A stretch of 64,000 nucleotides of DNA, taken from positions 4,622,414 through 4,686,413 of the forward strand of contig OZ241348.1 of assembly GCA_965199915.1 (NCBI GenBank), given 5' to 3'. Numbering within the stretch: the first letter of the stretch is position 1; each line of letters starts with the position of its first letter. The position numbers and the translations under genes were made by a program. The DNA is from Candidatus Azotimanducaceae bacterium. GTDB taxonomy: Bacteria; Pseudomonadota; Gammaproteobacteria; Pseudomonadales; Azotimanducaceae. This document shows, piece after piece, positions 9,616 to 24,480 of this stretch. Below the pieces are notes generated by a model. The model had not been told where the DNA came from. It made no database searches and saw nothing but the letters and a program-made list of their open reading frames with translations.

Positions 9616-9725
9616 TTGGCTGGACATTGACGGTCAGGTGCGACAAGCATAGGGTTTGACCAACTTGGTCGTAGAGGCGATGGGGCGTGGCAAACCGCAT
9701 GCAACAGGAGCCTTCCCGCGCATCG

Positions 9726-9980: not shown

Positions 9981-10428
9981 GCGGGTGGTTGGTGGACACC
10001 AACGTCGTGTCCGAGTTGCGCAAGACCAACCCAACCCGACAGTGAAGGCTTGGTCTGACGCGCAGGCGTCGCACAGGTTCTTTCTGAGCACGGTTACCCT
10101 TGCGGAAATCCGCTATGGCATCGAACGTCAGCAAGACGCGGCGCTGCACGAGCAACTGAGCCTGTGGCTCGATCTGGAACTTCGGCCATGGTTCGCCGGC
10201 CGAATACTCGCCATTGACGAGGAAGTGCTTCTTGAGTGGCGACGCATGGTGGTGTCCGGGCGGTCGCGCGGCATCATCTTCAGCCATCCGGACGTGTTCA
10301 TTGCTGCAACGGCGCGGGTGCATGGCTTGGCCGTATGCACACGCGACGAGCGCGGCTTCCAAAGCGCGGGCATTTCCGTCCTGAATCCTTGGCGCATGTT
10401 CGCAACCCCGGGTTCCGGCAACGATTAG
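9977..10428 (+). pseudogene. vapC: VapC-type PIN-domain toxin, disrupted by a 1-nt frameshift
   Basis: Frame A from TTG 9977 gives SGWLVDTNVVSELRKTNPTRQ-stop (10043..10045). Frame B continues PNPTVKAWSDAQAS ... LAEIRYG ... FIAATARVHGLAVCTRDERGF to 10428. The switch lies in the aaccc-aaccc repeat at 10028..10037, consistent with a missing base. Confidence 0.8.
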
Positions 10429-10437
10429 CCGACCAAG

Positions 10438-11028
10438 GTGGGCAATGCAGTGGACGAACTGGTGTCAAGCACGGGCGGAGCGCAGCGTCCCTTGACCCGC
10501 GAAGAGCCGCGAGCACAAGAATTGCCACGAAAACCACCACCCGCCGAATCCCTTGCCGCCATCGCGGCCGGCATCCGGCAGGCCGCCACGCTCTACTACC
10601 AGTTGCTGCTGGTGGTGGGGCGCAGCGGAGCGGGCAAGACGCAAGCCTTGACGTCCGCAAGCAAGCCCGCCGGTGCCCTCGTGGTCAACGTGGGCTTGGA
10701 ACTCGCATCGCGTCTGCTCGAACGAACAACGCGGCAACGCCGCTTGGAGGTGCAGGGATTCCTTGAGGAGCTTGTTGCGACCGCCAGCGCGGCCAGCGGT
10801 GTGGCGCTGCTGGACAACATCGAGGTGCTGTTCGATGCCGATCTGCGACAGGACCCGCTCCGCTTGCTGCAAGCCGTCTCGCGCAACAGGACGGTGGTTG
10901 CCGCGTGGCCGGGGACGCTGCGCGGCGGCACGCTGCGCTATGCTCCGCCCCCACACCGCGAGTATCGAGAGTATCCGGCGCATGGCCTGTTGACGGTGGC
11001 GCTCGAACACGGCGACGAAACACCATGA
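10438..11028 (+). CDS. brxF: BREX type 3 P-loop protein BrxF-like
   Basis: 196 aa with Walker [14 protein letters not shown]. It is a small ATPase immediately upstream of, and overlapping (ATGA), the brxC-like gene. Confidence 0.7.
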
Positions 11029-14000
11029 AATACCGTGAACTGATTCAATTCGAGCCCATCGAGTCCGTGGTGCAGCTGCGCAACGCGAACCGTGCGGAGC
11101 ACGCCCGACGGCTGGTTGAGACCTACGTCGTTTCCGACGAAATGGCGGAGCGGCTAGCCAACCTAGCCATCCCCCACCTCCAGTTCGACCGGCCGGCGGA
11201 CAACAAGGGCCTCTTGGTGGTGGGCAACTACGGCACCGGCAAGTCGCACCTGATGTCCGTGGTTTCGGCGGTGGCGGAGAACGGCGACTTCGCAGCTTGC
11301 GTTGGCCAGGCGGAAGCGGCGGCCGCGCTGGCGCTAGTCGCCGGCAGATTCCAAGTGGTGCGCACCGAGATCGGCGCTTCCACCATGTCGTTGCGGGACA
11401 TTCTGACCGGCGAGCTGGAGCAGGGGTTGGAACGGGCGGGCGTGGAATACCGCTTTCCGCCCACCAGCCAAGTGGTGTCCAACAAGCACTGCTTTGAGGA
11501 GATGATGTCCGCGTTCCACCGCGCGTTCCCGGACCAGGGCCTGCTGCTGGTGGTGGACGAACTTCTGGACTATTTGCGCTCGCGCAAGGATCAGGAGCTC
11601 ATCTTGGACTTGAACTTCCTGCGCGAAATCGGCGAAGCGTGCAAAGACCTGCGCCTGCGCTTCATGGCCGGCGTGCAAGAGGCCATCTTCGACAACGAAC
11701 GCCTTGCCTTCGCCGCCGACTCCCTGCGCCGCGTGCAGGATCGCTTCGCGCAGATCGTCATCGCCAAGAGCGACGTGAAGTTCGTGGTGGCCGAACGGCT
11801 GCTGCGAAAGACCGCCGAGCAGCAAGCGAAGATACGCGACTATCTGACGCCGTTCGGGAAGTTCTACGAGCGCTTGAACGAAGGCATGGACGAGTATGTG
11901 CGCTTGTTCCCCGTCCATCCGCAGTACATCGACACTTTCGAGCGCGTGGCGGCTGCGGAAAAGCGCGAGGCTCTGCGCACGCTCTCCAATACCATGAAGG
12001 GGATGCTGGATGCCCATGTGCCCAACGACCACCCGGGTCTCATCGCCTACGACAGCTATTGGGGAAACCTGATCGGCAACCCGGCGTTCCGCGCCGTGCC
12101 GGACATCAAGGCCGTGATGGATTGCAGCGAGACGCTGGAAGGGCGCGTGCAGCAAGCGTTCACGCGCCCGGCGTACAAGCCGATGGCGTTGCGGCTGATC
12201 CATGCGCTTTCCGTGCATCGCCTGACGCAGAACGACATCCACGCCGCCCTGGGCGCCACCGCCAAGGAACTGCGCGACGGTCTGTGCCTGTACCAGCCGG
12301 GCATCGAGGACCTGGGCGGCGACCCCGCCGACGATTTGCTCACCCAAGTGGAAACCGTGCTCCGCGAAATCCACCGTACGGTGAACGGCCAGTTCATTTC
12401 CTCCAATGCGCACAATGGCCAGTTCTACTTGGATTTGCAGAAGACGGACGACTTCGACGCCCACATCGAGCGCCGCGCCGAGAGCCTGGACGCCTCAAAG
12501 CTGGACCGCTACTACTATGTGGCGCTGTGCCAGCTCATGGAGTGCTCGGACGAAACGTACGTGACCGGCTTCAACATCTGGGAACACGAGCTCACTTGGC
12601 TTGAGCGCAAGGCGGCGCGCAACGGCTACTTGTTCTTCGGCGCTCCGAACGAGCGATCCACGGCGGTGCCGCCGCGGGATTTCTACCTCTACTTCGTCCA
12701 GCCCTTCGAGCCGCCACGCTTCAAGGACGAACAGAAGGCCGACGAGGTCTTCTTCCATCTCGCCGGCATGGATGAGGACTTTCGCCAACCGCTACGCGCC
12801 TACGCCGCTGCTCTGGACCTCGCGGCGACATCCTCTGGCCACGCCAAGCACACTTACGAAAACAAGGCGGCCGAATCCCTGCGCGAACTGGTGAAGTGGT
12901 TGCGAACGCACATGGCGCAAGCGTTTCGCGTCACCCACCGAGGCCGTGCGCGGGCCATGCTTGATTGGGCCCGAGGCGGCAGGTCGTTGCGCGAACTGTC
13001 CGCAACCCCGGACGACGAACGCATCAACTTCCGCGACTTGGTGAACACCATCGCCGGCATCTGCCTGGCCCCCCACTTCGAGGATCAAGCGCCCGACTAC
13101 CCCGTGTTCTCGGTACACATCACCGGCGGCAACCGCGCTCAAGCCGCTCAAGACGCTCTACGCGCCATCGCCGGCCAGCATCGCAGCCGTCAGGCGACGG
13201 CAATTCTCGATGCCCTGGAACTGCTCGACGGCGACCGGCTAGCGCCGGAAAACTCGAAGTACGCCCAACACATCCTCAACGCGATGGCGGAAAAGGGGCA
13301 TGGTCGCGTGTTGAACCGGGTCGAGTTGATTCGCGACGAGCTCGGCGTGGAATACATGGCCCCGTCGCGGTTGCGGTTGGAACCGGAATGGGTGGCGGTG
13401 GTGTTGGCCACGCTCGTCTATTCCGGCCATGTGGTGTTGGCCACCACCGGCCGGAAGTTCGACGCGGTTGGATTGCCACAGTTGGCAGCCGTTGCCATCA
13501 GCGATCTGACCAGCTTCAAGCACATCGAGCGCCCCAAGGAGTGGAACCTGCCGGCATTGACCGCCCTCTTCGAGTTGCTCGAACTGGCGCCGGGGATGGC
13601 CCAGCTCATCACCCAAGGCAAGGACGAGCCGGTGCAGCAAATGCAGAAAGCGGCTGGCGCGACGGTTGAACAGCTGGTGGTCGCCGGCCAGCACCTGCGC
13701 GATGGCTTCGTATTCTGGGGCCGAACCTTGCTGACCGAAGACGAAGCCAAGCTACTGCACAGCCGGCTTGACAACGCCAAGGCGTTCCTGGAAGCGCTGC
13801 AACCCTACAACTCGCCCGGCAAGCTGAAGAACTTCCGCTACGAGGCCCAAGAGGTCGCCGCGCATCGCGACGGTTTTCAAGCCCTGCAGGAGGCGCAAGC
13901 GCTCGCCACGTTGTGCGCCGATCTGGGCACGCTGGCGTCCTATCTCGCAACTGCCGAAGCCGGATTGCCGACGGAGGGCAACTGGGCGGCCAAGGTGAAA

Positions 14001-14753
14001 GCCGCCAAGAACGACATCGCCGCCCAACTCGGCGATCCGAAGGCGCGGTCCGCCCCCAACTTCCGGCAGCAGACCAAACGCCGCCTTCTGCAACTCAAGG
14101 CGGAGTATGTGCGGGACTACTTGGCCCAGCACACGAGAGCGCGCCTTGGTGTGGAGGGCGACGAGCGCAAAGCGAAGCTGCTCGGCGATGTACGCTTGCG
14201 AACGCTGCAGCGCCTGACCGCCATCGACTTGATGCCGGAGCAGCATCTGAACAGCTGGCTCCGCCGGATCGTCGAGCTCGAGAGCTGTTTCGCGCTGACC
14301 GAGCAGGACTTGCAAGCCGCCCCGGCGTGCCCGCATTGCGGCTTCAAGGCAGGCACGGGGTCTGGCCCTTCCGCGGAGGCGATGCTCACCGGCTTGGACG
14401 CCGAGCTCGATGCCTTGACGGATGCTTGGACGCAAACGCTCTTGGCCAACTTGGACGACCCCGCGGCCAGGGCCAGCATGACGTTGCTGGAATCCGACGC
14501 GGCCAACTTGGTGGCCGAGTTCGCCCAAGCCGGCCGCTTGCCGGGCGAAGTAGGCGACGACTTCGTGCAAGCCTTGAAGGATGTGCTCTCCGGCCTAGAG
14601 AAGGTCTCGGTGACCACCGAGAGCCTCCGCGCCGCCCTGCTCGCCGGCGGCGTGCCCGCCAAACCGGAGGAGATGAAGCAGCGCTTCGGTGCGTATGTGG
14701 ACGGGTTGGTGAAGGGCAAGACGCCCAGCAAGACGCGGATTGTGGTGGAATAG
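11025..14753 (+). CDS. brxC: BREX ATPase BrxC/PglY-like (DUF6079-type)
   Basis: 1242 aa from ATG 11025. [38 protein letters not shown] ... [16 protein letters not shown] (Walker A). Size and N-terminal pattern are typical of BREX BrxC. Confidence 0.8.
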
Positions 14754-14757
14754 CCAC

Positions 14758-16668
14758 ATGACCCGTGAAGAGCTAGTCGAGCGCCTGCGGAAATACGAGT
14801 GGTCGGACATCGAGTTCAAGCAAGCTCGCCGAGGCGTTCCACAGGACGCCTACAAGACCGTTTCCGCATTCGCCAACACCGCTGGCGGCTGGCTTGTGTT
14901 TGGCGTCCGCGACTCCAGCGGCACCTTGGATGTGGTTGGCGTGGTGGAAGTGGACAAGGTGCAGAACGACTTCCTGAGCACCCTCCGGGCTGGCAACAAG
15001 CTGAACCGCGTGATCGCGGTGGACGAGCAAGCCGAGGAAATGGATGGCAAGACCTTGCTGGTGTTCCACGTTCCCGAGTCGCCGAGGGGCGACAAGCCGG
15101 TCTACCTCGGCGGCGACATTCGCGAGTCCTACATCCGTCGCGGCGCTGGCGACGAGCGTTGCACGATGCCGGAGATCGAGCGGTTCCTGCGCGATGCCGC
15201 CGCCGACTACGACGGCCAAGTGGTGGACTTGGACGCCGAGCGGTTCTTCGACCCCGATTCCCTGGGTTGGTATCGCCGCGTATTCGACGATCGCAATCCC
15301 GGCCGGCGACGAGAGCTGCCGGACATGGAGTTCCTGCACGAGTGGGGCTTTGTCGTCGAGCGTGGCGGCCGTCTCGCGCCTACGCTGGCGGCGGTGTTGG
15401 TGTTGGGCAGAGGGCGCTATGTGCGCCAAGTCTTGCACCGGCCGGTGGTGGATTGCCAGTTCATCGACTCTACTTTCGATGCTTGGCCGCCCGATCTGCG
15501 CTGGAGCGATCGCGTCGTGGTCGAGGAAAACTTGGTGCAGGCATGGCTCATACTTTCCGAGCGCTATGTGCGGCGGGCCGACCGCCCGTTCCGCATCGAC
15601 CCGGCGACGCTGCGGCGCGATGACGACCCGCCGGACTACATATCCTTCCGGGAGTCGGCCATCAACCTGCTGCTCCATCAGGACTACGGCGATCAGGGGC
15701 GGCACGCCAGCATCCGTCTGTTTCGGGATCGGATGGAGTTCCGCAATCCAGGGGACGCCTTCGCGACCATAGATGAGCTCTTGGAACCCGGCGCCAAGGA
15801 CGAGCGTAATCCGAAAATCGTCGCGGCGTTCCGCCGGCTAGGCCTGAGCGAACAGGCAGGCGCCGGCATCCGGGCGATTTTCCGCAACTGGCAGGCGTTG
15901 GGCCATGTGCCACCGATGATCGACAACGACAAGACGAAAAAAGCCTTTGAGGTATGCCTCGTACGGGAAACGCTGCTGAGCGAGGAGCAACGTCTCTTCC
16001 AGTCCCGCTTGGGGCTGCGCTTGAACGACGCGCAAGCGCGGGTGTTCGCCTTTGCCTGCCGTCAGGGGCGCGTTTCGCTTGTTGACGCGAAGGCGGTGAC
16101 AGGGTGGAGCGGTGCGGAAGCATCCGCCACCTTGGAGGCGCTCCAAGTGCAGAGCGTGTTGCAGCCCCTGCAGGAGGGGTCGTACAGACTTGCGGAGCAC
16201 CTTGAAGGGCATGCCGACCTCCCGCTGCTTGGTCAGTCCGAGAGTGACCAAGTACGCGGCAGCCCCAGCGACTTAGGCAGTGACTTGGTCACTGACCCAC
16301 CTGACGCAGTGGACATCGATGCCATGTCCACTGCACAAGTAGCCCATAGGCCAAGCTCCATGTCCACTGAACATGGGAGCGATGTTCACATGCCGGCTGC
16401 CGCACTTTCCGACATCCAATGGCGCATCGTGGCCTCTTGCGACGTGCCCCGCCTGCTGGCCGAGATCATGGATGATCTCGGTGTCGTCAACCGCGGCTAC
16501 TTCAAGAAAACGCACCTAGACCCGTTGATCCGCGCAGGCTTCATCGCCTTGACGAATCCGGCCCAGCCGCGAGCGCCCAGCCAGCGGTACATGCTGACCG
16601 AGGCCGGGGTGGAGTTGAAGACATCCCGCCTCCTCCTCACAGGCGATGAGAACGTTGGCCCAGACTGA
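14758..16668 (+). CDS. AlbA_2/Schlafen-type putative DNA-binding protein with RecG-C-terminal-like (HATPase_c_4) and winged-helix regions
   Basis: EWSDIEFKQARRGVP ... SAFANTAGGWLVFGVRD (AlbA_2 pattern). ERNPKIVAAFRRLGLSEQAGAGIRAI (HATPase_c_4-like). C-terminal KKTHLDPLIRAGFIALTNP..SQRYMLTEAG (wHTH-like). Starts 5 nt after the brxC stop. Confidence 0.65.
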   Translation: MTREELVERLRKYEWSDIEFKQARRGVPQDAYKTVSAFANTAGGWLVFGVRDSSGTLDVVGVVEVDKVQNDFLSTLRAGNKLNRVIAVDEQAEEMDGKTLLVFHVPESPRGDKPVYLGGDIRESYIRRGAGDERCTMPEIERFLRDAAADYDGQVVDLDAERFFDPDSLGWYRRVFDDRNPGRRRELPDMEFLHEWGFVVERGGRLAPTLAAVLVLGRGRYVRQVLHRPVVDCQFIDSTFDAWPPDLRWSDRVVVEENLVQAWLILSERYVRRADRPFRIDPATLRRDDDPPDYISFRESAINLLLHQDYGDQGRHASIRLFRDRMEFRNPGDAFATIDELLEPGAKDERNPKIVAAFRRLGLSEQAGAGIRAIFRNWQALGHVPPMIDNDKTKKAFEVCLVRETLLSEEQRLFQSRLGLRLNDAQARVFAFACRQGRVSLVDAKAVTGWSGAEASATLEALQVQSVLQPLQEGSYRLAEHLEGHADLPLLGQSESDQVRGSPSDLGSDLVTDPPDAVDIDAMSTAQVAHRPSSMSTEHGSDVHMPAAALSDIQWRIVASCDVPRLLAEIMDDLGVVNRGYFKKTHLDPLIRAGFIALTNPAQPRAPSQRYMLTEAGVELKTSRLLLTGDENVGPD

Positions 16669-19444
16669 AGATTCCAGCCTGTTGCCCGATGCGCCAACCG
16701 CGGACCGAAAGGGCCCCGTCGAGTGCTTCGGCATGATGTTCGACTCCGACGATGACCGGCGGAGCTATTTCCTCGCCCGACTGAAGGCGAAACTCCCCGA
16801 CTTGCGGCAGCGCACGGACTTTCCCATCGGCGAAGACGAGGACATCCTGCGCCTTTCGGACCCGCCCTACTACACGGCCTGCCCCAACCCGTTCCTCGCC
16901 GAGTTCGTGGAACACCACGGCAAGCCCTACGACCCCGACGAGCCGTACCATCGGGAGCCTTTCGCCGTGGACGTGAGCGTGGGCAAGACCGATCCGCTCT
17001 ACAAGGCCCACGGCTACCACACCAAGGTGCCCCACCGCGCCATCGTGCCGTCCATCCTCCACTACACGGTGCCGGGCGACGTTGTGCTCGATGGCTTCTG
17101 CGGATCCGGGATGACTGGCGTTGCCGCCCAATGGTGCGGCACGGCGCCGCGCGAATACCGCATGGAGTTGGAGCAGCAGTGGAGGAAGGAGGGCCGGCAA
17201 CCGCCCAAGTGGGGCGCTCGGCGAGCTATTCTCGGCGACCTCTCCCCGGCTGCCACCTTCATTGCCGCCAACTACAACATTCCCTTTGACGTGGATGCGT
17301 TCGCAGACGCCGCGCAGAAGCTCTTGGACGACGTCGAGGAAGAGATCGGCTGGATGTACGAGACGCAGCACACGGACGGGAAGACGAAGGGGCGGATCCG
17401 CTACACCGTATGGAGCGAGTGCTTTACCTGCCCGGCGTGCGCGGAAGAAATCGTGTACACCGAACAAGCGCTTGACAGCGCCACCGGTAGGATAAAACCT
17501 GCGTTCCCGTGCCCCAATTGTGGTGCCACATTGACGAAGAGGCAGCTCAATCGTTCCTATTTGTCCACCCGCGACGCCGCGCTCGGCAACGTGGTGAAGA
17601 CGACGAAACGAGTACCCGTTTCCATCGTCTACGCCGCGAATGGCCAAGTTTGCGCGAAGGCACCGGACGAGGGCGATGTGGCAAGGCTGCGCGAGATCGA
17701 GGACCTGCCGGTTCCGGCTGACCTCCCGGTGGACGCGATGATGCACAAGCCGGCTGGAGAAGTTTGGGGGGACCAATGGCGAAAGGGCGTGTCGTCATTT
17801 ACGCATGTTCACCACCTGTTCCTACCGCGTGCGCAACATTCCCTCTCGGCAATATGGCGGCGCGCGACCGAGTGCCCAGACAACCGACAACGAAACATGC
17901 TCCTGTTTCTAACGGAGCAGGCAATTGTTGGCATGTCGTTGCAGAACAGGTACGGACCCTTGCACTATTCGCAAGTCAACCGCCACATGGCCGGCCGTGT
18001 GCAGGTCAGCTCCCAGCACTCCGAACCAACGCCCTGGTATGTGCTTGGCGGAAAGCTAGGGCGCTTGACGAAGACTTTTCGACAAAACCCGTTCCACGAC
18101 GCCACAATTGGATTGACGACCGCGGACTGTTCCAATCTGCCCCTCCTCGACAATTCGGTGGATTATGTTTTCACCGATCCCCCCTTCGGCGACAATTTGG
18201 CCTACAGCGAGCTCAATTTCCTCAACGAATCCTTTCTGCGCGCCTTCACGCGAAACAAGCCGGAAGCCATCGTCAGCCGAACGCAGCGGAAGGACGCCGC
18301 CGCCTATCAGCGCCTCATGCAACGCTGCTTCCAAGAGTGTCAACGAGTGCTCAAGCCGGGCCGCTGGATGACGCTGGTCTTCCACAATTCGAGAAACGCC
18401 ATCTGGAACGCCGTCCAAGAGGCCATGATGGCCGCCGGCTTCGTCGTCGCCGACGTCAGAGTTCTGGACAAGCGGCAGGGGACGTTCAACCAAGTCAAGG
18501 CGTCCCAAGCCGTCAAGCAGGACCTCGTGATCTCCGCCTACAAGCCGAACGGCGGCCTGGAGAAGAGATTCCAGCTAGCGGCCGGCACTGAGGAAGGCGT
18601 TTGGGACTTCGTCCGCACGCATCTCGGTCGCCTTCCTTTGTTCGTGGAGAGAGATGGCAGCGTGGAGGTCGTGTCGGAGCGCCAAGACTACCTCTTGTAC
18701 GACCGCATGGTCGCCTTCCACGTCCTGCGCGGTGTCACCGTGCCGCTGTCCGCCGCCGAGTTCTACGAGGCCCTCCGCCAACGCTTCGCGCAGCGAGACG
18801 GCATGTGCTTTCTTCCGGAGCAAGTCGTCGAGTACGACCGCAGGCGCGCAAAAGCAAACGGCGTACTGCAGCTCGAACTCTTTGTCAAAGACGAAGAGAC
18901 GGCGATCCAGTGGCTGCGCCACCAACTCGACAAGAAGCCGCAGACCTTCCAGGACATCCACCCCGCCTACATCCAAGAGCTCGGCGGCTGGGCCAAACAC
19001 GAGAAGATGCTGGAACTCTCCCGCCTGCTCAAGGAAAACTTCCTCCACTACGACGGCACCGGCGAAGTGCCCCCGCAGATCCACACCTACCTCTCGACCA
19101 ACTTCAAGGACCTTCGCAACCTCTCGAAGGACGCCCTCGCCCTCCGAACCAAGGCGAAGGCTCGCTGGTACGTCCCGGACCCCCACAAAGCCGCCGATTT
19201 GGAGAAGCTCCGCGAACGCACGCTGCTTCGCGAGTTCGCGGAGTACCAAAACGCAGACCTGCGCCGCCTCAAGGTCTTCCGCTTGGAAGCCATCCGCGCC
19301 GGCTTCCGCCGCGCCTGGCAGGAACAAGACTACGCCACGATCGTTGCCGTGGGCGGGAAGATCCCCAGCGGCGTCATCCAAGAGGATCCGAAGCTCCTCA
19401 TGTGGCTAGACCAAGCGACTGTTCGCCAAGAACAGGCAGTGTAG
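16646..19444 (+). CDS. pglX: BREX methyltransferase PglXI-like (N6/N4 DNA methylase)
   Basis: 932 aa. SAM-binding motif VLDGFCGSGMTGVAA and catalytic VDYVFTDPPFGDNLAY. Start is uncertain: it overlaps the previous gene by 23 nt, with an alternative ATG near 16733. Confidence 0.8.
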   Translation: MRTLAQTEDSSLLPDAPTADRKGPVECFGMMFDSDDDRRSYFLARLKAKLPDLRQRTDFPIGEDEDILRLSDPPYYTACPNPFLAEFVEHHGKPYDPDEPYHREPFAVDVSVGKTDPLYKAHGYHTKVPHRAIVPSILHYTVPGDVVLDGFCGSGMTGVAAQWCGTAPREYRMELEQQWRKEGRQPPKWGARRAILGDLSPAATFIAANYNIPFDVDAFADAAQKLLDDVEEEIGWMYETQHTDGKTKGRIRYTVWSECFTCPACAEEIVYTEQALDSATGRIKPAFPCPNCGATLTKRQLNRSYLSTRDAALGNVVKTTKRVPVSIVYAANGQVCAKAPDEGDVARLREIEDLPVPADLPVDAMMHKPAGEVWGDQWRKGVSSFTHVHHLFLPRAQHSLSAIWRRATECPDNRQRNMLLFLTEQAIVGMSLQNRYGPLHYSQVNRHMAGRVQVSSQHSEPTPWYVLGGKLGRLTKTFRQNPFHDATIGLTTADCSNLPLLDNSVDYVFTDPPFGDNLAYSELNFLNESFLRAFTRNKPEAIVSRTQRKDAAAYQRLMQRCFQECQRVLKPGRWMTLVFHNSRNAIWNAVQEAMMAAGFVVADVRVLDKRQGTFNQVKASQAVKQDLVISAYKPNGGLEKRFQLAAGTEEGVWDFVRTHLGRLPLFVERDGSVEVVSERQDYLLYDRMVAFHVLRGVTVPLSAAEFYEALRQRFAQRDGMCFLPEQVVEYDRRRAKANGVLQLELFVKDEETAIQWLRHQLDKKPQTFQDIHPAYIQELGGWAKHEKMLELSRLLKENFLHYDGTGEVPPQIHTYLSTNFKDLRNLSKDALALRTKAKARWYVPDPHKAADLEKLRERTLLREFAEYQNADLRRLKVFRLEAIRAGFRRAWQEQDYATIVAVGGKIPSGVIQEDPKLLMWLDQATVRQEQAV

Positions 19445-19446
19445 TC

Positions 19447-19920
19447 ATGGTGCCTGAACCGAGCGTAACCGCGCTTTCGCCTAACGACGTGTCGGACGTT
19501 GAGGCGCTCCGGGCTATGAACAACGAGACCTTGGGCTTCATGGCTATGTCAGTAATCGAAGGCTACCTGAGAAAGGGCGGCGGAGTTGGCATTCGGGGCG
19601 ATGATGGCCTTCGTGGCTATGCCCTCTACGCAGTTCACCGCCATCATGTTCGGCTCATCCACCTCTGCGTCGCAGACCAATACCGGGGTTCGAGTTATGC
19701 AGAGCGCCTTACCGATGCGGTAGTTGATGCAGCGAAGCAGGCGAGGGTCGGCACCGTCAAGCTGACCAAGCATCCATCGCGAAAGGGTTGCAGGCGGACT
19801 TTGTCACCGGTGCTCTTGAGCTGTACATTGCAAAAGAGGTGTTCAATGAGATTAATCGAGCCGGGTCAGACCAACGTGCGCGGTCGCGGGACATCGCGCG
19901 AGCTTATCCTCATCAACTGA
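19447..19920 (+). CDS. GNAT-like N-acetyltransferase domain protein
   Basis: ATG 2 nt after the pglX stop. RLIHLCVADQYRGSSYAERLTDAVVDAAKQ resembles GNAT motif A (Q-x-x-G-x-S/A). The C-terminal 50 aa look non-GNAT and overlap the next ORF, so a frameshift or fusion is possible. Confidence 0.5.
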   Translation: MVPEPSVTALSPNDVSDVEALRAMNNETLGFMAMSVIEGYLRKGGGVGIRGDDGLRGYALYAVHRHHVRLIHLCVADQYRGSSYAERLTDAVVDAAKQARVGTVKLTKHPSRKGCRRTLSPVLLSCTLQKRCSMRLIEPGQTNVRGRGTSRELILIN

Positions 19921-19937
19921 CTCACGATGCTGGCAAA

Positions 19938-21242
19938 ATGCAGGCCGTGGTGAAGCGCCTAGAGAGCATTCTACCGTCAGATCGGCCCAGCGAAGAGTCT
20001 GATATACGGCAGTTGGCCATGACAGCCACCTCAGACGTTTACATATTTCTGACGCGAGACGAGGGCATTCTAAATAGAGCTGCACAGATCAAGTGCGTGG
20101 CGTCCGTGGATGTCATGCATCCAGATGAGCTGATCGTTCGCCTAGATCAGTTCACCGACAGCGACGCCTACCAGCCCGTAGCGGTGTCTGGATCGAACCT
20201 TGGTTGGCGACGGGTGGTAGCCAATGAAGTGGCGAAGTTTCGTAGCGGGGACGACCTCTTGGGGACGCACGAGAAGAAGTGGCGTTACAAGAGGCAGTTG
20301 GACAAAGCGCTGAGCCACCCGAAGATTTGGCGAACCGAGGCGCTTTGGTCCGAAGACAGGTTGCTAGCCTTGCGTAGCCTGCGGTGCGATGGCGGTCGTC
20401 TGGTGGCGGGCCTTTGTCGGGCCTCGCGGGGCAGAGCCCAAGAGATGTTCACTGAGTACGCCGCCGCAACCCTCATACATGAGGCAGTCAGCCGTGGCTG
20501 CCTTGCTGTGGAAATAGAGCCGCACGGTGCAGTGCCAGAAGCGAGAATGCAGTTGACGCGCCTAGGGTTCGCGGACGACGGTGGCAGGCTTGTGCGGATG
20601 TGCCCTGCGGCTGTCATGTCGGCAGTAGACCTTCGAGAGGCCGCTGCTGCTGTGGCCGACAGCACGAGCTTGGAGGAACTGGAGAGACTATGCTCGCCTG
20701 TTGCCTTGCGAGATGGCCACACGGAATGTCTATTGGTGCCCATCAAGCCAGGCTACGCTAGGGCGCTGTTCAACACGAGACGGGCCGCGGGCGACCTTTT
20801 TGGTGCCGACGAGAAGGTGCTCCTTCGATGGGAGAACGTCTACTTTCGGAAGAAAAACCAACACCGCATGATCCAAGCACCGGCGCGGATATTGTGGTAC
20901 GAGAGTAACAGCCAAGGAGTCGTAGCCGTCTCCCACCTTGACGATGTGGAAATCGGGCAGCCAAAGGACGTGTTCTACAACAACAGGTCGTTGGGAACGC
21001 TCAGCTGGCAGGAAATCCAAGAAATGTGCGGTGGCGGTCGAGTTCAGGGTGTTCAAGACATAATGGCGCTTCGGTTTTCGCACACCCATCTGTTTCGATC
21101 TTCGGTGAGTTTCGCGGCCCTCAAAGATGTCTACGGCAGCCACAATTTGAAGAACCCCGTGGTTCAATCGCCATCACGGGTGCCGCGAGCGGTGTTTTTA
21201 GACATCTTTCGTCTGGGGTTTCCGGCGCAGGCATCGGCATGA
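19938..21242 (+). CDS. multidomain protein with C-terminal ASCH/PUA-like domain (N-terminal and central regions of uncertain family)
   Basis: Track ORF opens at 19788 (TTG). The first ATG, at 19938, lies just after the GNAT ORF stop. The C-terminal region LLVPIKPGYARALFN ... ARILWYES ... GVVAVSHLDDVEIGQPKDVF ... ALRFSHTHLF parallels the ASCH pattern of the next gene. The N-terminal DIRQLAMTATSDVYIFLTRDEGIL resembles the last strand-helix of PIN-like folds. Confidence 0.45.
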   Translation: MQAVVKRLESILPSDRPSEESDIRQLAMTATSDVYIFLTRDEGILNRAAQIKCVASVDVMHPDELIVRLDQFTDSDAYQPVAVSGSNLGWRRVVANEVAKFRSGDDLLGTHEKKWRYKRQLDKALSHPKIWRTEALWSEDRLLALRSLRCDGGRLVAGLCRASRGRAQEMFTEYAAATLIHEAVSRGCLAVEIEPHGAVPEARMQLTRLGFADDGGRLVRMCPAAVMSAVDLREAAAAVADSTSLEELERLCSPVALRDGHTECLLVPIKPGYARALFNTRRAAGDLFGADEKVLLRWENVYFRKKNQHRMIQAPARILWYESNSQGVVAVSHLDDVEIGQPKDVFYNNRSLGTLSWQEIQEMCGGGRVQGVQDIMALRFSHTHLFRSSVSFAALKDVYGSHNLKNPVVQSPSRVPRAVFLDIFRLGFPAQASA

Positions 21243-21712
21243 AGCCGCTGCTTCTGTCGCTCAAGCCTGTGTATGCGGATTTGGTATTCAGTGGCTTGAA
21301 GACTGCTGAGTTGCGGCGATGGATGCCGCGGGAAGTAAAGGGCCGGGACGTTTTCATCTATGTCTCCAGCCCGGAGAGAGTGCTTAGAGGGGGGTTCAGA
21401 GTGGCCGATGTCTGGCAGGGTGCGCCAAAAGACGTCTGGCATCGAGTAAAGGACTTGGCGAAGGTTGACGCGAGCACCTACAACGCCTATTACCAAGGGC
21501 GATCGACGGCCTTCGCCCTAAGCATCGCGGATGCGTGGGAATATAAGCATCCGCTTGCCTTGGAAGAATTGCGGCGCAAGTTCGGGAACTTTGTTGTACC
21601 CCAATCGTGGCGATATCTGACGCCTTGTGAGCGTCGGTCTTTCGGCAAGATGAAGCGCGTGCCAATAGACACAGCGGAGAGCGCGGAATGCTCGAAGCGA
21701 GCTGCGGCATGA
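21239..21712 (+). CDS. ASCH domain protein (PUA-like fold, COG4933-type)
   Basis: MKPLLLSLKPVYADLVFSGLKTAELRR ... DVFIYVSSPERVLRGGFRVADVWQGAPKDVW ... FVVPQSWRYL matches the recurrent ASCH pattern. ATGA overlap with the upstream gene. Confidence 0.65.
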   Translation: MKPLLLSLKPVYADLVFSGLKTAELRRWMPREVKGRDVFIYVSSPERVLRGGFRVADVWQGAPKDVWHRVKDLAKVDASTYNAYYQGRSTAFALSIADAWEYKHPLALEELRRKFGNFVVPQSWRYLTPCERRSFGKMKRVPIDTAESAECSKRAAA

Positions 21713-21736
21713 TCGGTTGGCACATGCGAGTCGCCC

Positions 21737-23737
21737 ATGCCTCACGAGCGTAGCTGGCAAGACTCCGTTCTCGACGAGTTCACGCCCGGCCTCTCGCCCA
21801 TCACCATCGTCTCCGATCCTGACGGGCTCTTGTGCAACGAGGGTCTCCTAGCCGCTTTGCGCGAACGGCGCTTCGCCCTGCTTCCGTTCGAAGACCCCGT
21901 CGCCTTTCGCTACGCCTACGAGTCGCGCTACCGCCCGCTGTTGCGGAGTGCGGACGCGGCAGGCCTCGTGGTTTGCGTAGCTGGCCCTCCCGCTGCGCTG
22001 GACGATCTCCCCTACGACATCCTCGCGAGGGCCCGTCGCGTGTCGCTCAGTTTGGCGGCGCTGTTCCCTCGGCTGGATCAGGCGGTGTTGCGCACGTTGG
22101 CCCCGCACGATTGGGAGGCGCTCCACCTCGCTAAGGCCCGCTTCACCCCAACCGCAGCCCTCGGCGAATCCGCGACCAAGGATTTCGTCTTGCGACACGT
22201 CTTCGGCATCCAGCCGGAGCTGTTGTCTTCGGCGGCGGCGTTGCTGGCGGCCCTCTTGCGTCGTCACTATCCCGCTCGGCGCATACCAACGACTCTGAAC
22301 GAGCGCATCGTTCAAGTCCTCCGTGCGCGGTTCCAAGATTGGCCGCTCGAACGCATCGTGCCGGATCGGGCGGCGTTCCTCGGCTTCCTGCAAGAGCGCT
22401 GGCCGATCTTCTTGAACGCCCAGGCCGATGGGGCTGGCACAGTAAGAGAAGGCGAGGGCCTCGCCTACCTTGGACCCGCGCTATTGCCTTTCGAGCACGC
22501 GGACGTGCGCGTCTACATGGACAACCTGTTCGCGGAGGGATTGCTTTGTCCCGTGGTCCACTGGCGTGCGAACGCGCTCGGCAAGACGTGGCTTGGCGTC
22601 GGTGTGCGTTCGGAGCCGCAAGCGGATCGCAATCGGCAGCTGGATCGGCTGCTCGCCATCGCACTGAAAGCCCTGCCGGAGCCAAACGCGCACCACGAGC
22701 GTTGGGCCCACTTCGCCAGCGTCTGGGCGAACGTGTTGGCGCTAACGCACGAGACCGGCCATCGGCCAAACGCAAGCCACCAGCACCAAGTGGACGCTCT
22801 GCGAACGCGCATGGACGCGGCGTTCGCCGATTGGCTTGGCGGCCGCTACAGCGGGCTTGCCAATCTGCCGCCCACACCGCCGGTGATGCTGCACCACATT
22901 CCCCGCTTTCTGGCACGGGAGATCGGCGATGCCGCGAAGGATGCGCCCAAGAAAGCCGCATTGATCGTGGTGGACGGGTTGGCACTCGATCAATGGGCCG
23001 TCATGCGGCGGGAACTCGGCGAGCAGCGTCCCGGCTGGCGGTTCCGCGAGCAGGCCGTGTTCGCATGGGTTCCCACCGTCACATCGGTCTCGCGCCAAGC
23101 CATCTTCGCCGGAACCCCGCCGTTTCTGTTCCCGAGGAGCATCCACCACACCAACAAGGAGGAAGCGCTGTGGCGGCGCTTCTGGGGCGACGAGAACATA
23201 GACCAAGTTGGGTATTTGAAGGGCTTGGGCGACCGGCCCTTTGACGACGTTGCCGCACTCATCGATCCGCCCCACATGCGCGTCGTCGGCTTGGTGGTGG
23301 ACAAAGTGGATCGCATCATGCACGGCATGGAGCTCGGCACCGCCGGCATGCACAACCAAGTGCGCCAGTGGGCAGCGCTCGGCCACTTCGCAGCGCTTCT
23401 GGATCTGCTGTTCGCAAACGGATTCCGCGTCTACCTCACCGCCGATCACGGCAACATCGAAGCCACCGGCTGCGGCCGGCCGAACGAAGGCGCAGTGGCG
23501 GATCTTCGGGGCGAACGTGTGCGTGTCTACTCCGACGAAGGCTTGCGCGGGCCGGTTGCCGAGCGCTTTCCCGAAGCGTGGCAATGGCCCGCGGATGGCC
23601 TGCCGGTGGATTATCTGCCGTTGCTGGCGCCCGGCCGTTTCGCCTTCGTGGGCGAAGGCGAGCGCGTGGTGGCGCACGGCGGCGTCTGCCTCGAGGAGCT
23701 CGTCGTGCCGTTCGTGGAAGTGGCGGTCGGGCGCTGA
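21737..23737 (+). CDS. pglZ: BREX alkaline-phosphatase-family protein PglZ
   Basis: 666 aa. LIVVDGLALDQWAVM and YLTADHGNIEA are PglZ-domain motifs. Confidence 0.85.
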   Translation: MPHERSWQDSVLDEFTPGLSPITIVSDPDGLLCNEGLLAALRERRFALLPFEDPVAFRYAYESRYRPLLRSADAAGLVVCVAGPPAALDDLPYDILARARRVSLSLAALFPRLDQAVLRTLAPHDWEALHLAKARFTPTAALGESATKDFVLRHVFGIQPELLSSAAALLAALLRRHYPARRIPTTLNERIVQVLRARFQDWPLERIVPDRAAFLGFLQERWPIFLNAQADGAGTVREGEGLAYLGPALLPFEHADVRVYMDNLFAEGLLCPVVHWRANALGKTWLGVGVRSEPQADRNRQLDRLLAIALKALPEPNAHHERWAHFASVWANVLALTHETGHRPNASHQHQVDALRTRMDAAFADWLGGRYSGLANLPPTPPVMLHHIPRFLAREIGDAAKDAPKKAALIVVDGLALDQWAVMRRELGEQRPGWRFREQAVFAWVPTVTSVSRQAIFAGTPPFLFPRSIHHTNKEEALWRRFWGDENIDQVGYLKGLGDRPFDDVAALIDPPHMRVVGLVVDKVDRIMHGMELGTAGMHNQVRQWAALGHFAALLDLLFANGFRVYLTADHGNIEATGCGRPNEGAVADLRGERVRVYSDEGLRGPVAERFPEAWQWPADGLPVDYLPLLAPGRFAFVGEGERVVAHGGVCLEELVVPFVEVAVGR

Positions 23738-23742
23738 AGACC

Positions 23743-24480
23743 ATGGGCAACCAAGTGGGCATCAGCCAGCGCATTCGCTTGGAGTGGCTGGAAGCAACCG
23801 CCAACCTCGTCTTGGCGGGCCAAGACAAAGAGGCCATTCAACGCGCCTTGAACGAGATGCTGGTGGACAAGCTCTCGGTGAACAGCCGCGCTGTGCGGGG
23901 CAGCCGCCACAAGACCGTCACCATCCTTGCGAAGATCTGGCGCAGTGTGCCGCCGGAACTGAAGGCGCTGCGCGACGACGGCTTGGAACGCCTGCCCGCG
24001 CTGGATTCCGTCCATCGCCAAGCCATCCACTGGGGCATGACCATCGCCGCCTATCCGTTCTGGGGCGTCGTGGCGGCGCAGACCGGACGCTTGCTGCGCT
24101 TGCAGAGCACCGCCAGCGCCGCCCAGGTTCAGCGCCGAGTGCGGGAACGGCACGGCGAGCGGCAAACCGTGTCGCGCGCCACCGCCCGCGTGCTGCGGTC
24201 GTTCGTTGATTGGGGCGTTCTTGAGGACACGAAAGCCAAGGGCGTGTACGTCGCGGGCAAACGGGGAGAGATCACGGACCCGCACGTTGCCGCGTGGTTG
24301 GCCGAGGCGTTGCTGCGCTCGAACGTCGGCGGCGGCAAGCCGAGCGCTGTGCTGCGCCACCCGAGCTTGTTTCCCTTTCAACTGCCGCGCGTTGGCGCCG
24401 GCCAGCTAGCGGCCCGGTCGAGCCGGTTGGAAGCGGTGCGCCAGGGGCTGGACGGAGAAGCGTTGCTGCTCCGCAACTGA
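23743..24480 (+). CDS. brxA: BrxA-like (DUF1819-like) terminal BREX protein
   Basis: 245 aa from ATG 23743, 6 nt after the pglZ stop. The helical protein is in the position of brxA in type 3 BREX. Assignment is by position and general pattern only. Confidence 0.45.
   Translation: MGNQVGISQRIRLEWLEATANLVLAGQDKEAIQRALNEMLVDKLSVNSRAVRGSRHKTVTILAKIWRSVPPELKALRDDGLERLPALDSVHRQAIHWGMTIAAYPFWGVVAAQTGRLLRLQSTASAAQVQRRVRERHGERQTVSRATARVLRSFVDWGVLEDTKAKGVYVAGKRGEITDPHVAAWLAEALLRSNVGGGKPSAVLRHPSLFPFQLPRVGAGQLAARSSRLEAVRQGLDGEALLLRN

What the first reader, a model, noticed from the sequence alone, without database searches (positions are those of the whole stretch)
19447..21712. GNAT / multidomain / ASCH gene triad occupying the BrxHII slot: candidate undescribed defence-associated module
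Seen in the sequence: three genes are wedged between the methyltransferase stop (19442..19444) and the pglZ start (21737). Gene 1 starts 2 nt after the pglX stop. Genes 2 and 3 share an ATGA overlap. Gene 3 ends 24 nt before pglZ. They must therefore be expressed from the BREX transcript rather than as an independent cassette. Gene 1 has a GNAT motif-A-like segment (LIHLCVADQYRGSSYAERL). Gene 3 shows the ASCH pattern (LSLKPVYADLVFSGLKTAELRR ... VFIYVSSP ... VPQSWRYL). The C-terminal third of gene 2 repeats that pattern (LVPIKPGYARALF ... ILWYES ... ALRFSHTHLF), so the triad encodes two ASCH-like domains and at least one acetyltransferase-like domain. Established: ASCH belongs to the PUA-like superfamily, whose members (EVE, SRA, YTH, ASCH) bind modified bases. 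E. coli YqfB (ASCH) has been characterised as an N4-acetylcytidine amidohydrolase. GNATs transfer acetyl groups. Inference: the triad could form an acetyl writer plus reader/eraser pair acting on nucleic acid or nucleotides. It might add a second self/non-self mark or a sensing step to BREX. I know of no described BREX accessory of this composition.
Basis: partly seen in the sequence, partly recalled or inferred. Interest (0 to 1): 0.85.

Follow-up and report, generated by a model that had tools for sequence, protein, structure and literature searches.

The report
Broken GNAT-PIN-ASCH pair inside BREX
The "three genes" between the BREX methyltransferase and pglZ are a two-gene module of a kind already predicted by computation (a large acetyltransferase–RNase–ASCH protein plus a small ASCH protein), it sits where the BREX helicase normally lies, and in this genome its large gene has been broken by a 226-base deletion.

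Summary
The coordinates and domain calls are right, but the gene count and the novelty claim are not. "Gene 1" and "gene 2" are two pieces of one gene (A). Intact orthologues are 660–675 aa with four domains: GNAT, PIN RNase, a second GNAT-like fold, and an ASCH-like domain. Against the closest intact allele (98.5–99.4% nt identity over A) the window differs by one indel, a 226-nt (3n+1) deletion after position 19767. It removes the C-terminal half of the first GNAT and the first catalytic Asp of the PIN domain. Gene 3 (B, 157 aa) is intact. B is a close structural relative of Zymomonas ZmASCH, an in-vitro ssRNA nuclease, and only a distant one of the ac4C amidohydrolase YqfB. A is followed by B in all 83 loci with a B match. 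Most pairs stand alone, often directly behind a restriction-modification methyltransferase gene. One clade sits between pglXI and pglZ of a helicase-less type 3 BREX; relatives carry BrxHII in that slot. The module matches PADLOC candidate PDC-M11 and the published (PIN)-GNAT-EVE/ASCH operons, with an extra N-terminal GNAT. I read it as an RNA-targeting back-up effector. No experiment on it was found.

The parts
19447..19767 (+). Gene A, 5' fragment. It encodes residues 1-107 of the N-terminal GNAT domain, including the acetyl-CoA motif RGSSYA. The open frame then runs on out of frame to the TGA at 19918-19920.
   Evidence: Pfam GNAT, E 5e-5, residues 49-111. 99.4% nt identical to intact L086. 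Collinear with P0002/P0003/P0241 residues 1-107.
19767..19768 (+). Deletion junction. 226 nt (3n+1) are missing relative to the closest intact allele. The lost segment is the C-terminal half of GNAT1, the linker, and PIN strand 1 with the invariant first Asp (D169 in P0003 numbering).
   Evidence: Global alignment of window and L086 shows a single indel of 226 nt. The same gap appears against L001/L003 as 199 nt. Invariant residues are listed.
19768..20180 (+). Gene A, remainder of the PIN (VapC-like) domain. It keeps the E-x-x-x-E (ELYIAKEVFNEI, from 19818), SDIRQ (19995) and TRD (20040) motifs but lacks the first strand and first Asp. Possible starts are TTG 19788 or ATG 19938.
   Evidence: Pfam PIN_3 in 15 of 46 family members, best E 4e-10. 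PADLOC PDC-M11A profile positions 2-158 align to this domain in orthologues. The AF2 model shows an alpha/beta domain at 164-305.
20181..20666 (+). Gene A, middle domain. It is probably a second, divergent GNAT fold with no conserved glycine-rich acetyl-CoA motif.
   Evidence: AF2 secondary-structure order is beta-beta-beta-alpha-beta-alpha-beta-beta. hhalign against GNAT1: E 8e-4, probability 25%. Weak PDB GNAT matches at 373-456, E 0.06-0.8.
20667..21242 (+). Gene A, C-terminal ASCH-like (PUA-like) domain, ending at the TGA stop at 21240-21242.
   Evidence: PADLOC PDC-M11A, E 3.8e-10. hhalign against the B family: 91% probability, E 1e-6. Foldseek ZmASCH 5y6b, E 3e-7.
21239..21712 (+). Gene B, an intact 157-aa ZmASCH-type ASCH protein. 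It has the GxKxxELRR motif (K21, E24, R26) and conserved Y41 and S123.
   Evidence: PADLOC PDC-M11B, E 4e-27. Pfam ASCH, E 1e-5. PDB 5GUS/5GUQ, E 2e-11 (profile 9e-19). AF2 pLDDT 90.5; Foldseek TM 0.82-0.90 to ZmASCH.
16646..19444 (+). Context: pglXI, the type 3 BREX methyltransferase.
   Evidence: PADLOC PglXI, E=0.
21737..23737 (+). Context: pglZ.
   Evidence: PADLOC PglZ, E 1.6e-252.
11025..14753 (+). Context: brxC (DUF6079 type). A brxF-like P-loop gene lies just upstream at 10438-11028.
   Evidence: PADLOC BrxC, E=0; Pfam DUF6079.
14740..16668 (+). Context: a Schlafen/AlbA_2 + HATPase_c_4 + wHTH gene, a second embedded RNase-type accessory, lying between brxC and pglXI.
   Evidence: Pfam SLFN_AlbA_2 E 4e-17 and HATPase_c_4 E 3e-15. 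This class is described as a BREX back-up effector in PMC12839542.
23743..24480 (+). Context: brxA-like gene closing the BREX locus.
   Evidence: tblastn to L001 BrxA: 86% identity, E 9e-124.

Best explanation
The region holds a two-gene module. Gene A encodes GNAT, a PIN RNase, a GNAT-like fold and an ASCH-like domain. Gene B encodes a small ZmASCH-type ASCH protein. The module is a GNAT-extended relative of the (PIN)-GNAT-EVE/ASCH operons, which PADLOC lists as candidate system PDC-M11.

The pair is a self-contained unit. It usually lies in defence islands and often sits directly behind the methyltransferase gene of a restriction-modification system. In one clade it is fixed between pglXI and pglZ of a type 3 BREX that lacks the BrxHII helicase.

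Proposed mechanism of the intact module (inference only): it is a second-line, RNA-directed effector transcribed with the modification system. The two ASCH-type domains bind RNA or a modified nucleic acid. The PIN domain cleaves RNA. The N-terminal GNAT acetylates an RNA-linked substrate such as aminoacyl-tRNA. The outcome would be a halt to translation when the primary system is bypassed, much as PrrC backs up EcoprrI.

In this window A is inactivated by a recent 226-nt frameshifting deletion. Only B and a PIN-crippled 434-484-aa remnant can be made, so the module is most likely non-functional here.
For: Shown:
- One gene, not two: intact 660-675-aa orthologues cover both ORFs. The single 226-nt indel is against a 98.5-99.4% identical allele. 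The fragments have no further stops, and dN/dS is 0.12, so the deletion is recent.
- Domains: Pfam GNAT in 46/46 and PIN_3 in 15/46 family members. D169, E197, E201, D251 and D270 are invariant. The AF2 model has pLDDT 86 with four domains. Foldseek finds GNAT folds and ZmASCH.
- B is ZmASCH-type. ZmASCH is a Mg-dependent ssRNA nuclease in vitro, and its functional Tyr47 and Ser128 (PMC5615036) align to the invariant Y41 and S123 of B.
- Linkage: A is followed by B in all 83 loci with a B match, with a 0-46 nt gap in intact loci.
- Context: BREX type 3 in the window and in L001-L004, L030, L086 and L095-L097. A type IIG RM-methyltransferase gene lies upstream on the same strand in 13/77 loci, directly adjacent in 11. 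A type I RM system lies upstream in L084.
- PADLOC PDC-M11A/B hits.
- A and B have 57-58% GC against 66-67% for pglZ and the genome.
- Literature: PMC7641849 sections 10 and 24; PMC5499597; PMC12839542 section 35.
Against: - No experiment on any member was found in the held literature. The substrate, the trigger and the role of B are therefore all inferred.
- A simple toxin-antitoxin reading is weakened by L095, where A is intact but B carries an internal deletion.
- A is disrupted in 13/83 loci against 1/83 for B. This excess is not significant once gene length is allowed for. Some frameshifts may be long-read assembly errors.
- The middle GNAT-like assignment is weak (E 8e-4, probability 25%).
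- The consistent position behind DNA methyltransferase genes would also fit a DNA-directed role.
Confidence: 0.6

Rival explanations
1. The module writes and reads or erases an acetyl (for example N4-acetylcytosine) mark on DNA or nucleotides, giving BREX a second self/non-self mark.
For: - The module has a GNAT with a canonical acetyl-CoA motif plus two PUA-like domains.
- It sits directly behind DNA methyltransferase genes in BREX, type IIG and type I RM loci.
- Iyer et al. 2013, as summarised in PMC7641849, proposed DNA-base acetylation for (PIN)-GNAT-EVE proteins.
- PMC12839542 proposes GNAT/TGT-based DNA modification in a different BREX-related system.
Against: - A carries a PIN nuclease with invariant catalytic residues.
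- B is close to the RNase-active ZmASCH. It is only remotely like YqfB (TMq 0.5, 10-12% identity) and has Glu where YqfB's triad has Thr (the YqfB triad is from my own knowledge).
- Most loci have no adjacent modification system.
- A self-marking enzyme would not be expected to be lost in 16% of loci while the partner defence genes persist.
- In this window the GNAT is truncated.
Confidence: 0.12
2. A-B functionally replaces the BrxHII helicase as an integral BREX component in this type 3 sub-clade, and BREX immunity depends on it.
For: - A-B occupies exactly the BrxHII position. The junction to pglXI is a 2-nt gap or a 4-nt overlap, conserved across A identities of 35-100% (L030, L097, L001, window).
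- No BrxHII is present in these loci.
- BREX-embedded copies form one main clade in the A tree.
Against: - The module has no helicase or ATPase domain.
- The same pair is autonomous in most genomes.
- 23% of type 3 BREX systems lack BrxHII anyway (PMC12839542).
- The slot also accepts unrelated cargo such as CBASS, reverse-transcriptase genes and transposases.
- The window and L003 keep intact BREX core genes with A broken.
Confidence: 0.1
3. A-B is a selfish addiction (toxin-antitoxin) cassette that merely stabilises the islands it rides in. It has no sensing or defence role, and here it is a decaying remnant.
For: - PIN and GNAT are classic toxin domains, and the PIN_15/17 families were predicted to be TA toxins (PMC5499597).
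- A is often inactivated: IS-sized insertions in five loci, deletions in two, one nonsense mutation and frameshifts in five.
- The GC content is atypical.
- Alleles are shuffled by recombination.
Against: - L095 keeps A with B broken.
- B has no recognisable DNA-binding or antitoxin fold in this clade.
- The placement behind methyltransferase genes and in defence islands is non-random.
Confidence: 0.15

Closest known systems
PADLOC candidate system PDC-M11 (genes A and B), equivalent to the (PIN)-GNAT-EVE + ASCH operons of Iyer et al. 2013 and Bell, Wolf & Koonin 2020
   Same: It is a two-gene unit. The large protein has PIN, GNAT-like and C-terminal PUA-like domains in the same order. It is followed by a small ASCH protein. 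The unit is associated with RM systems and defence islands. B matches PDC-M11B over its full length (E 4e-27).
   Different: A carries an extra N-terminal GNAT of about 150 aa. It matches the ~490-aa PDC-M11A profiles only weakly and only over the PIN and PUA-like parts (E 1e-10 to 1e-18). Its PUA-like domain is nearer to ZmASCH/B than to EVE. BREX embedding is not mentioned in those papers.
PIN_15 / PIN_17 families (Matelska et al. 2017)
   Same: VapC-like PIN domains fused to GNAT and PUA-like domains, encoded upstream of ASCH-containing genes, and predicted to be toxin-antitoxin-like.
   Different: Those partners are HTH-ASCH fusions (COG4933), whereas B here has no HTH. I could not test membership directly because those profiles are not in the libraries available.
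ZmASCH (Zymomonas mobilis ASCH protein; PDB 5GUQ/5GUS)
   Same: B shares the fold (TM 0.82-0.90) and 27-28% identity with it. The functionally tested Tyr47 and Ser128 are conserved.
   Different: Lys53 is not conserved (it aligns to position 47 of B, which is variable). The genomic partner of ZmASCH was not examined here. B's own activity is untested.
PrrC anticodon nuclease within the EcoprrI type I RM locus (from my own knowledge), and the 'backup effector' RNases (PIN, HEPN, Schlafen) in BREX loci described in PMC12839542
   Same: Both are RNA-targeting effector genes embedded between the genes of a DNA-modification-based defence system and apparently co-transcribed with it.
   Different: There is no sequence relationship to PrrC. 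No evidence exists that A-B is held in check by, or senses inhibition of, the BREX or RM proteins.
E. coli YqfB (ASCH, N4-acetylcytidine amidohydrolase)
   Same: It belongs to the same ASCH/PUA-like superfamily.
   Different: The structural match is weak (TMq ~0.5, 10-12% identity, E 3e-3). B is 157 aa with extra helices and has the canonical GxKxxExR motif rather than the YqfB Thr variant.

Membership tests
PADLOC PDC-M11 / (PIN)-GNAT-PUA + ASCH operon | A small ASCH protein (M11B) is encoded next to the large protein. | tested here: met
   B matches PDC-M11B at E 4e-27 over profile positions 3-123 of 132. A-B adjacency holds in 83/83 loci.
PADLOC PDC-M11 / (PIN)-GNAT-PUA + ASCH operon | The large protein has an N-terminal PIN domain with catalytic acidic residues. 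| tested here: met
   For the family: Pfam PIN_3 in 15/46 members, best E 4e-10; D169, E197/E201, D251 and D270 are invariant; PDC-M11A profile 2-158 aligns to residues 163-321. In the window copy the first strand and first Asp are deleted.
PADLOC PDC-M11 / (PIN)-GNAT-PUA + ASCH operon | A GNAT domain lies between the PIN and PUA-like domains. | tested here: inconclusive
   The AF2 topology is GNAT-like. hhalign against GNAT1 gives E 8e-4 but only 25% probability. PDB GNAT hits score E 0.06-0.8. No acetyl-CoA motif is conserved.
PADLOC PDC-M11 / (PIN)-GNAT-PUA + ASCH operon | A C-terminal PUA-like (EVE/ASCH) domain is present. | tested here: met
   PDC-M11A profile 314-457, E 1e-10 to 1e-12. 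hhalign to B: 91% probability. Foldseek ZmASCH, E 3e-7.
PADLOC PDC-M11 / (PIN)-GNAT-PUA + ASCH operon | Full-length match of the large protein to the PDC-M11A profiles. | tested here: not met
   Only partial, weak matches are found. A has an additional N-terminal GNAT absent from the 376-501-position profiles. It is therefore a variant architecture rather than a plain member.
Type 3 BREX (context) | BrxF, BrxC, PglXI, PglZ and BrxA are present. | tested here: met
   PADLOC BrxC E=0, PglXI E=0, PglZ E 1.6e-252. BrxF-like and BrxA-like genes are identified by tblastn to L001.
Type 3 BREX (context) | The BrxHII Swi2/Snf2 helicase lies between pglXI and pglZ. | tested here: not met
   tblastn with L090 BrxHII finds nothing in the window or in L001, L003, L004, L030 or L086. 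BrxHII is present in L090 and L092. The literature reports BrxHII in 77% of type 3 systems (PMC12839542).
YqfB-type ac4C amidohydrolase | A minimal ~100-aa ASCH fold with the Lys-Thr-Glu catalytic triad. | tested here: not met
   Foldseek to 9kyh/9kyf gives TMq 0.49-0.50 and 10-12% identity. B has K21 and E24 in GLKTAELRR. The triad definition is from my own knowledge. Enzymatic activity is not testable here.
ZmASCH-type ASCH ribonuclease | The fold plus Tyr47, Lys53 and Ser128 in the basic cleft. | tested here: inconclusive
   The fold is shared (TM 0.82-0.90). Tyr and Ser are conserved and invariant (Y41, S123). Lys53 aligns to a variable position (R47). Nuclease activity is not testable here.
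Type II toxin-antitoxin pair | The toxin cannot persist without its antitoxin, and the antitoxin has a DNA-binding or neutralising fold. | tested here: inconclusive
   A is disrupted in 13/83 loci against 1/83 for B. However, L095 has A intact with B broken. B has no HTH domain.

The most novel reading that the evidence does not exclude
In a helicase-less sub-clade of type 3 BREX, the GNAT-PIN-GNAT-ASCH protein and its ASCH partner are an integrated arm of the system and not passive cargo. Their PUA-like domains would read the modification state, or the products, of the upstream methyltransferase. They would then switch on RNA cleavage and acetylation when BREX is inhibited. The same logic would explain why the pair so often sits directly behind type IIG and type I RM methyltransferase genes.
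Probability: 0.12. Interest if true: 0.8.

Novelty: new variant of a known kind. Interest (0 to 1): 0.4.

Why it matters
The family is large: at least 1,606 clusters at 50% identity score E ≤ 1e-30, and the 150 best hits are nearly all near-full-length four-domain proteins. I found no experimental work on it. It is repeatedly placed directly behind DNA methyltransferase genes of BREX, type IIG and type I RM systems.

An intact BREX-embedded copy such as L001 would be a tractable test of two questions. The first is whether embedded RNase/acetyltransferase modules act as a second line behind BREX. The second is what a BrxHII-less type 3 BREX needs in order to work.

For this window the practical message is a correction to annotation. 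The locus carries a pseudogenised effector, so it is a poor choice for experiments.

Tried and rejected
- Three independent genes: rejected. Orthologue lengths and the DNA alignment show one gene with a deletion.
- Programmed frameshift or alternative start to explain ORF 1 and ORF 2: rejected. 75 codons of conserved sequence are physically missing.
- ac4C eraser (YqfB-like) for B: not supported by the structure comparison.
- BrxHII relocated elsewhere in the window: no hit.
- Profile search with the 46-sequence alignment A1 in genome contigs failed because no stretch was conserved enough. It was redone with 17 sequences.
- The metagenome scan with PglZ returned only 8 loci, mostly short. Only L090 and L092 were informative.
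- Iyer et al. 2013 could not be retrieved, so it is cited only through PMC7641849.
- The asymmetry 'A often broken, B never' as proof of toxin-antitoxin logic: about 3 B disruptions would be expected by length and 1 was seen, so it is not significant. L095 is a counter-example.
- Promoter and terminator scan: no terminator-like site in the short gaps. Two promoter-like matches inside A are not above chance (3 found against 1.7 expected).
- Foldseek on the whole A model does not report aligned ranges. The identities of the PIN and middle domains therefore rest on Pfam, PADLOC, hhalign and secondary structure only.
Full report
**1. What is in the sequence**

The + strand carries a type 3 BREX locus:
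- a brxF-like P-loop gene at 10438-11028;
- brxC at 11025-14753 (PADLOC E=0, Pfam DUF6079);
- a Schlafen/AlbA_2 + HATPase_c_4 + wHTH gene at 14740-16668;
- pglXI at 16646-19444 (PADLOC E=0);
- the region in question at 19447-21712;
- pglZ at 21737-23737 (E 1.6e-252);
- a brxA-like gene at ~23743-24480.

Housekeeping genes flank the locus: gatB upstream and cysD/cysNC downstream.

- The pglXI stop TAG at 19442-19444 is followed by an ATG at 19447.
- An ATGA overlap lies at 21239-21242.
- The stop at 21710-21712 lies 24 nt before the pglZ ATG.

No terminator-like site lies in these gaps. Promoter-like matches are at chance level. Co-transcription with BREX is therefore plausible but inferred.

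**2. Two genes, not three**

A protein search with ORF 2 found 138 relatives. Nearly all are 650-700 aa and begin with a GNAT domain. The nearest intact ones (P0002 at 82% identity, P0003 at 78%, and P0241 in the same 90% cluster) read straight through from the start of 'gene 1' into 'gene 2'.

I aligned the DNA to the closest intact allele, L086. Identity there is 99.4% over the 5' fragment and 98.5% over the 3' fragment. The alignment shows one indel only: 226 nt (3n+1) are missing from the window after position 19767. The same gap is seen against L001 and L003.

The deletion removes the C-terminal half of the first GNAT, the linker, and the first strand of the PIN domain with its invariant Asp. 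The last ~50 residues of 'gene 1' are out-of-frame read-through. 'Gene 2' can start only at TTG 19788 or ATG 19938; the database entry P0001 (434 aa) uses the latter.

The two fragments have no other defects. dN/dS against L086 is 0.12 on 22 differences. The deletion therefore looks recent. A 226-nt gap is not the usual kind of sequencing error, but I could not check the reads.

**3. Domain anatomy of the intact protein (A)**

An AlphaFold2 model of P0003, built on a 46-sequence alignment, has pLDDT 86 and pTM 0.71. It has four compact domains.

- **GNAT1, residues 1-148.** Pfam GNAT matches 46/46 family members. The R-G-x-G-x-A acetyl-CoA motif is conserved. Foldseek top hits are Ard1 and RimI.
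- **PIN, residues ~164-305.** Pfam PIN_3 matches 15/46 members, best E 4e-10. D169, E197, E201, D251 and D270 are invariant across sequences sharing only 25-77% identity. PADLOC PDC-M11A profile positions 2-158 align here.
- **Middle alpha/beta domain, residues ~306-472.** Its strand/helix order is that of a GNAT fold. Sequence support is weak: hhalign against GNAT1 gives E 8e-4 at 25% probability, and PDB GNAT hits score E 0.06-0.8. No acetyl-CoA motif is conserved. I call it 'probably a divergent GNAT fold'.
- **C-terminal PUA-like domain, residues ~473-660.** It is homologous to protein B (hhalign 91% probability, E 1e-6). It matches ZmASCH by Foldseek (E 3e-7) and PDC-M11A positions 314-457.

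**4. Protein B**

B is 157 aa and intact. It matches PADLOC PDC-M11B over its full length (E 4e-27) and Pfam ASCH (E 1e-5). Its only clear relative with a solved structure is the Zymomonas mobilis ASCH protein:
- sequence E 2e-11, profile E 9e-19;
- Foldseek TM 0.82-0.90 at 27-28% identity, using a model with pLDDT 90.5.

ZmASCH binds nucleic acids and cleaves single-stranded RNA in a Mg-dependent way in vitro. Tyr47, Lys53 and Ser128 are needed for this (PMC5615036). Tyr47 and Ser128 align to Y41 and S123, which are invariant in the B family. Lys53 aligns to a variable position.

B is much more conserved than A across the same loci: 50-60% against 33-37% identity to L001.

**5. Distribution and context**

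The A-B order holds in every locus examined (83/83 with a B match), with a 0-46 nt gap wherever A is intact. A profile search of 1.84 billion representative proteins found 1,606 clusters at E ≤ 1e-30. The top 150 are nearly all near-full-length four-domain proteins. The family is therefore large, mostly from uncultured bacteria, and where a source names it the name is 'GNAT family N-acetyltransferase'.

*Stand-alone loci.* 72 of the 77 complete loci from the genome scan (L004-L082) have no BREX gene within 10 kb by tblastn with type 3 queries. Among the 77 loci analysed for neighbours:
- 13 have a type IIG restriction-methyltransferase gene upstream on the same strand, directly adjacent in 11 (Pfam Eco57I/N6_Mtase/TaqI_C; PADLOC REase_MTase_IIG, best E 3e-250).
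- 11 have an FRG-like + TPR protein among the three genes downstream. That identification rests on reading the sequence only.

Three further loci were recovered separately through the look-up of encoding contigs. L084 follows a type I hsdR-M-S operon. L083 lies near DUF499 and other defence-type genes. L085 lies among housekeeping genes.

*BREX-embedded loci.* These copies (window, L001-L004, L086, L095-L097) fall in one clade of an NJ tree of A. L030 sits apart. In all of them A starts within a few bases of the pglXI stop.

More distant type 3 BREX loci (L090, L092) carry BrxHII (941/949 aa; PADLOC E=0) in exactly that position. None of the A-B-bearing loci has a BrxHII homologue. The 'BrxHII slot' statement is therefore correct. 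According to PMC12839542, BrxHII is present in 77% of type 3 systems, so helicase-less variants are a known minority.

The slot is also a landing site for other cargo behind A-B:
- a CBASS operon, a Phd/PIN pair and a transposase in L097;
- a reverse-transcriptase gene trio in L004 and L096;
- a second Schlafen-type gene in L030;
- a transposase in L086.

The brxC-pglXI gap likewise holds either the Schlafen-type gene or SIR2-HerA. A and B have 57-58% GC against 66-67% for pglZ, brxA and the flanking genome.

**6. Decay and shuffling**

A is disrupted in 13 of 83 loci:
- IS-sized insertions in L004, L059, L063, L069 and L077;
- internal deletions in the window and L074;
- a nonsense codon in L003;
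- frameshifts in L048, L055, L062, L070 and L073.

B is disrupted in only one of the loci tallied (L059). Allowing for gene length, about 3 disruptions of B would be expected, so the asymmetry is not significant. Some frameshifts occur in long-read MAGs and may be errors.

L095 was recovered later. It shows the opposite state: A is intact, B is internally deleted and BREX has decayed.

The window's BREX is a mosaic:
- brxC and pglXI are closest to L001 (89.5% and 91.8% nt).
- The Schlafen gene and A are closest to L086 (95.8% and 98.5-99.4%).
- B is only 82-84% identical to L001, L003 and L086. dS against L086 is 0.84 for B and 0.03-0.05 for A.

This indicates recombination with breakpoints at gene borders.

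**7. What it most likely does**

*Shown:* the domain content, the obligate A-B pairing, the defence-island and methyltransferase-adjacent context, and the broken state in this window.

*From the literature:*
- (PIN)-GNAT-EVE proteins with an adjacent ASCH gene were described as putative toxin-antitoxin or defence modules. They are often next to type I RM systems, and none of their domains has been tested experimentally (PMC7641849, sections 10, 19 and 24).
- The PIN_15 and PIN_17 families are PIN-GNAT-PUA fusions encoded upstream of ASCH genes (PMC5499597).
- PIN, HEPN and Schlafen RNases embedded in BREX operons have been interpreted as back-up suicidal effectors (PMC12839542, section 35).

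*Inference:* the intact module is an RNA-directed second-line effector. The two ASCH-type domains would provide nucleic-acid recognition. PIN would cleave RNA. GNAT1 would acetylate an RNA-linked substrate. The module would be expressed with, and perhaps kept in check by, the upstream modification system, as PrrC is by EcoprrI (my own knowledge).

I put about 0.85 on the identification as a PDC-M11-like GNAT-PIN-GNAT-ASCH + ASCH dyad broken by a deletion. I put about 0.4 on the RNA-effector mechanism itself. The combined figure I report is 0.6. The rivals are set out separately: a DNA or nucleotide acetyl mark, a true BrxHII replacement, and a purely selfish toxin-antitoxin cassette.

**8. Novelty and score**

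The kind of module is already catalogued by computation: in PADLOC as PDC-M11 and in three comparative-genomics papers. The general idea of RNase accessories inside BREX was published in 2026.

Three things seem not to be described in what I could read:
- the four-domain architecture with an additional N-terminal GNAT;
- its fixed position behind pglXI in a BrxHII-less type 3 BREX clade;
- its frequent position directly behind type IIG RM-methyltransferase genes.

I rate it a new variant of a known kind. Interest is 0.4 rather than 0.85. The family is uncharacterised and testable, but the composition is not new, the ac4C idea lacks support, and this particular copy is a pseudogene.

Noticed in passing
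window 9697-10428 (+): A Phd/YefM-like antitoxin (~9697-9951) is followed by a VapC/FitB-like PIN toxin. The toxin reading frame is split by a 1-nt frameshift in the tract ACCAACCCAACCC near 10025-10040. This is either a pseudogene or a long-read indel error.
   Followed up: partly
window 14740-16668 (+): A Schlafen/AlbA_2 + HATPase_c_4 + Fic-like_C (wHTH) gene is wedged between brxC and pglXI, overlapping both neighbours. It is a second embedded RNase-type accessory in the same BREX locus. In L092 the same gap holds SIR2-HerA.
   Followed up: partly
window 10594-24480 compared with L001, L003 and L086: The BREX locus is a recombinational mosaic. brxC and pglXI are closest to L001 (89.5% and 91.8% nt). 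The Schlafen gene and A are closest to L086 (95.8% and 98.5-99.4%). B is only 82-84% identical to L001, L003 and L086. dS against L086 is 0.84 for B and 0.03-0.05 for A.
   Followed up: yes
L097:12621-21252; L096:12554-17002; L004:12276-15987; L030:12552-16641; L086:12539-13588: In relatives the stretch between gene B and pglZ has taken up other cargo. L097 has a CBASS operon (SMODS, HORMA, AAA, Cap17-like/RNase_T), a Phd/PIN pair and a transposase. L004 and L096 have a three-gene unit with a reverse transcriptase. L030 has a second Schlafen-type gene and two unknown genes. L086 has a transposase.
   Followed up: partly
L006-L009, L012, L014, L016, L019, L021, L045, L057, L061, L071 (upstream of position ~10000): In 13 of 77 stand-alone loci a type IIG restriction-methyltransferase gene (950-1230 aa where intact, fragmented in some loci) lies upstream of A on the same strand, directly adjacent in 11. 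In several of these its end overlaps the start of A by 4 nt.
   Followed up: partly
L012, L014, L017, L025, L028, L053, L057, L068, L069, L072, L073 (downstream of B): A protein with an FRG-like N-terminal region fused to TPR repeats (about 400-640 aa) recurs among the three genes downstream of B in 11 of 77 loci. It was identified by reading the sequence only and was not run against Pfam.
   Followed up: no
L095:9459-14097: This is a decayed BREX locus. Only the last 141 codons of pglXI remain and pglZ is in fragments. A is intact at 669 aa, but B has an internal deletion. This is a counter-example to a simple reading in which B is the antitoxin of A.
   Followed up: yes
window 19447-21712: A and B have 57-58% GC, against 62-64% for brxC, the Schlafen gene and pglXI, and 66-67% for pglZ, brxA and the flanking chromosome.
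   Followed up: yes
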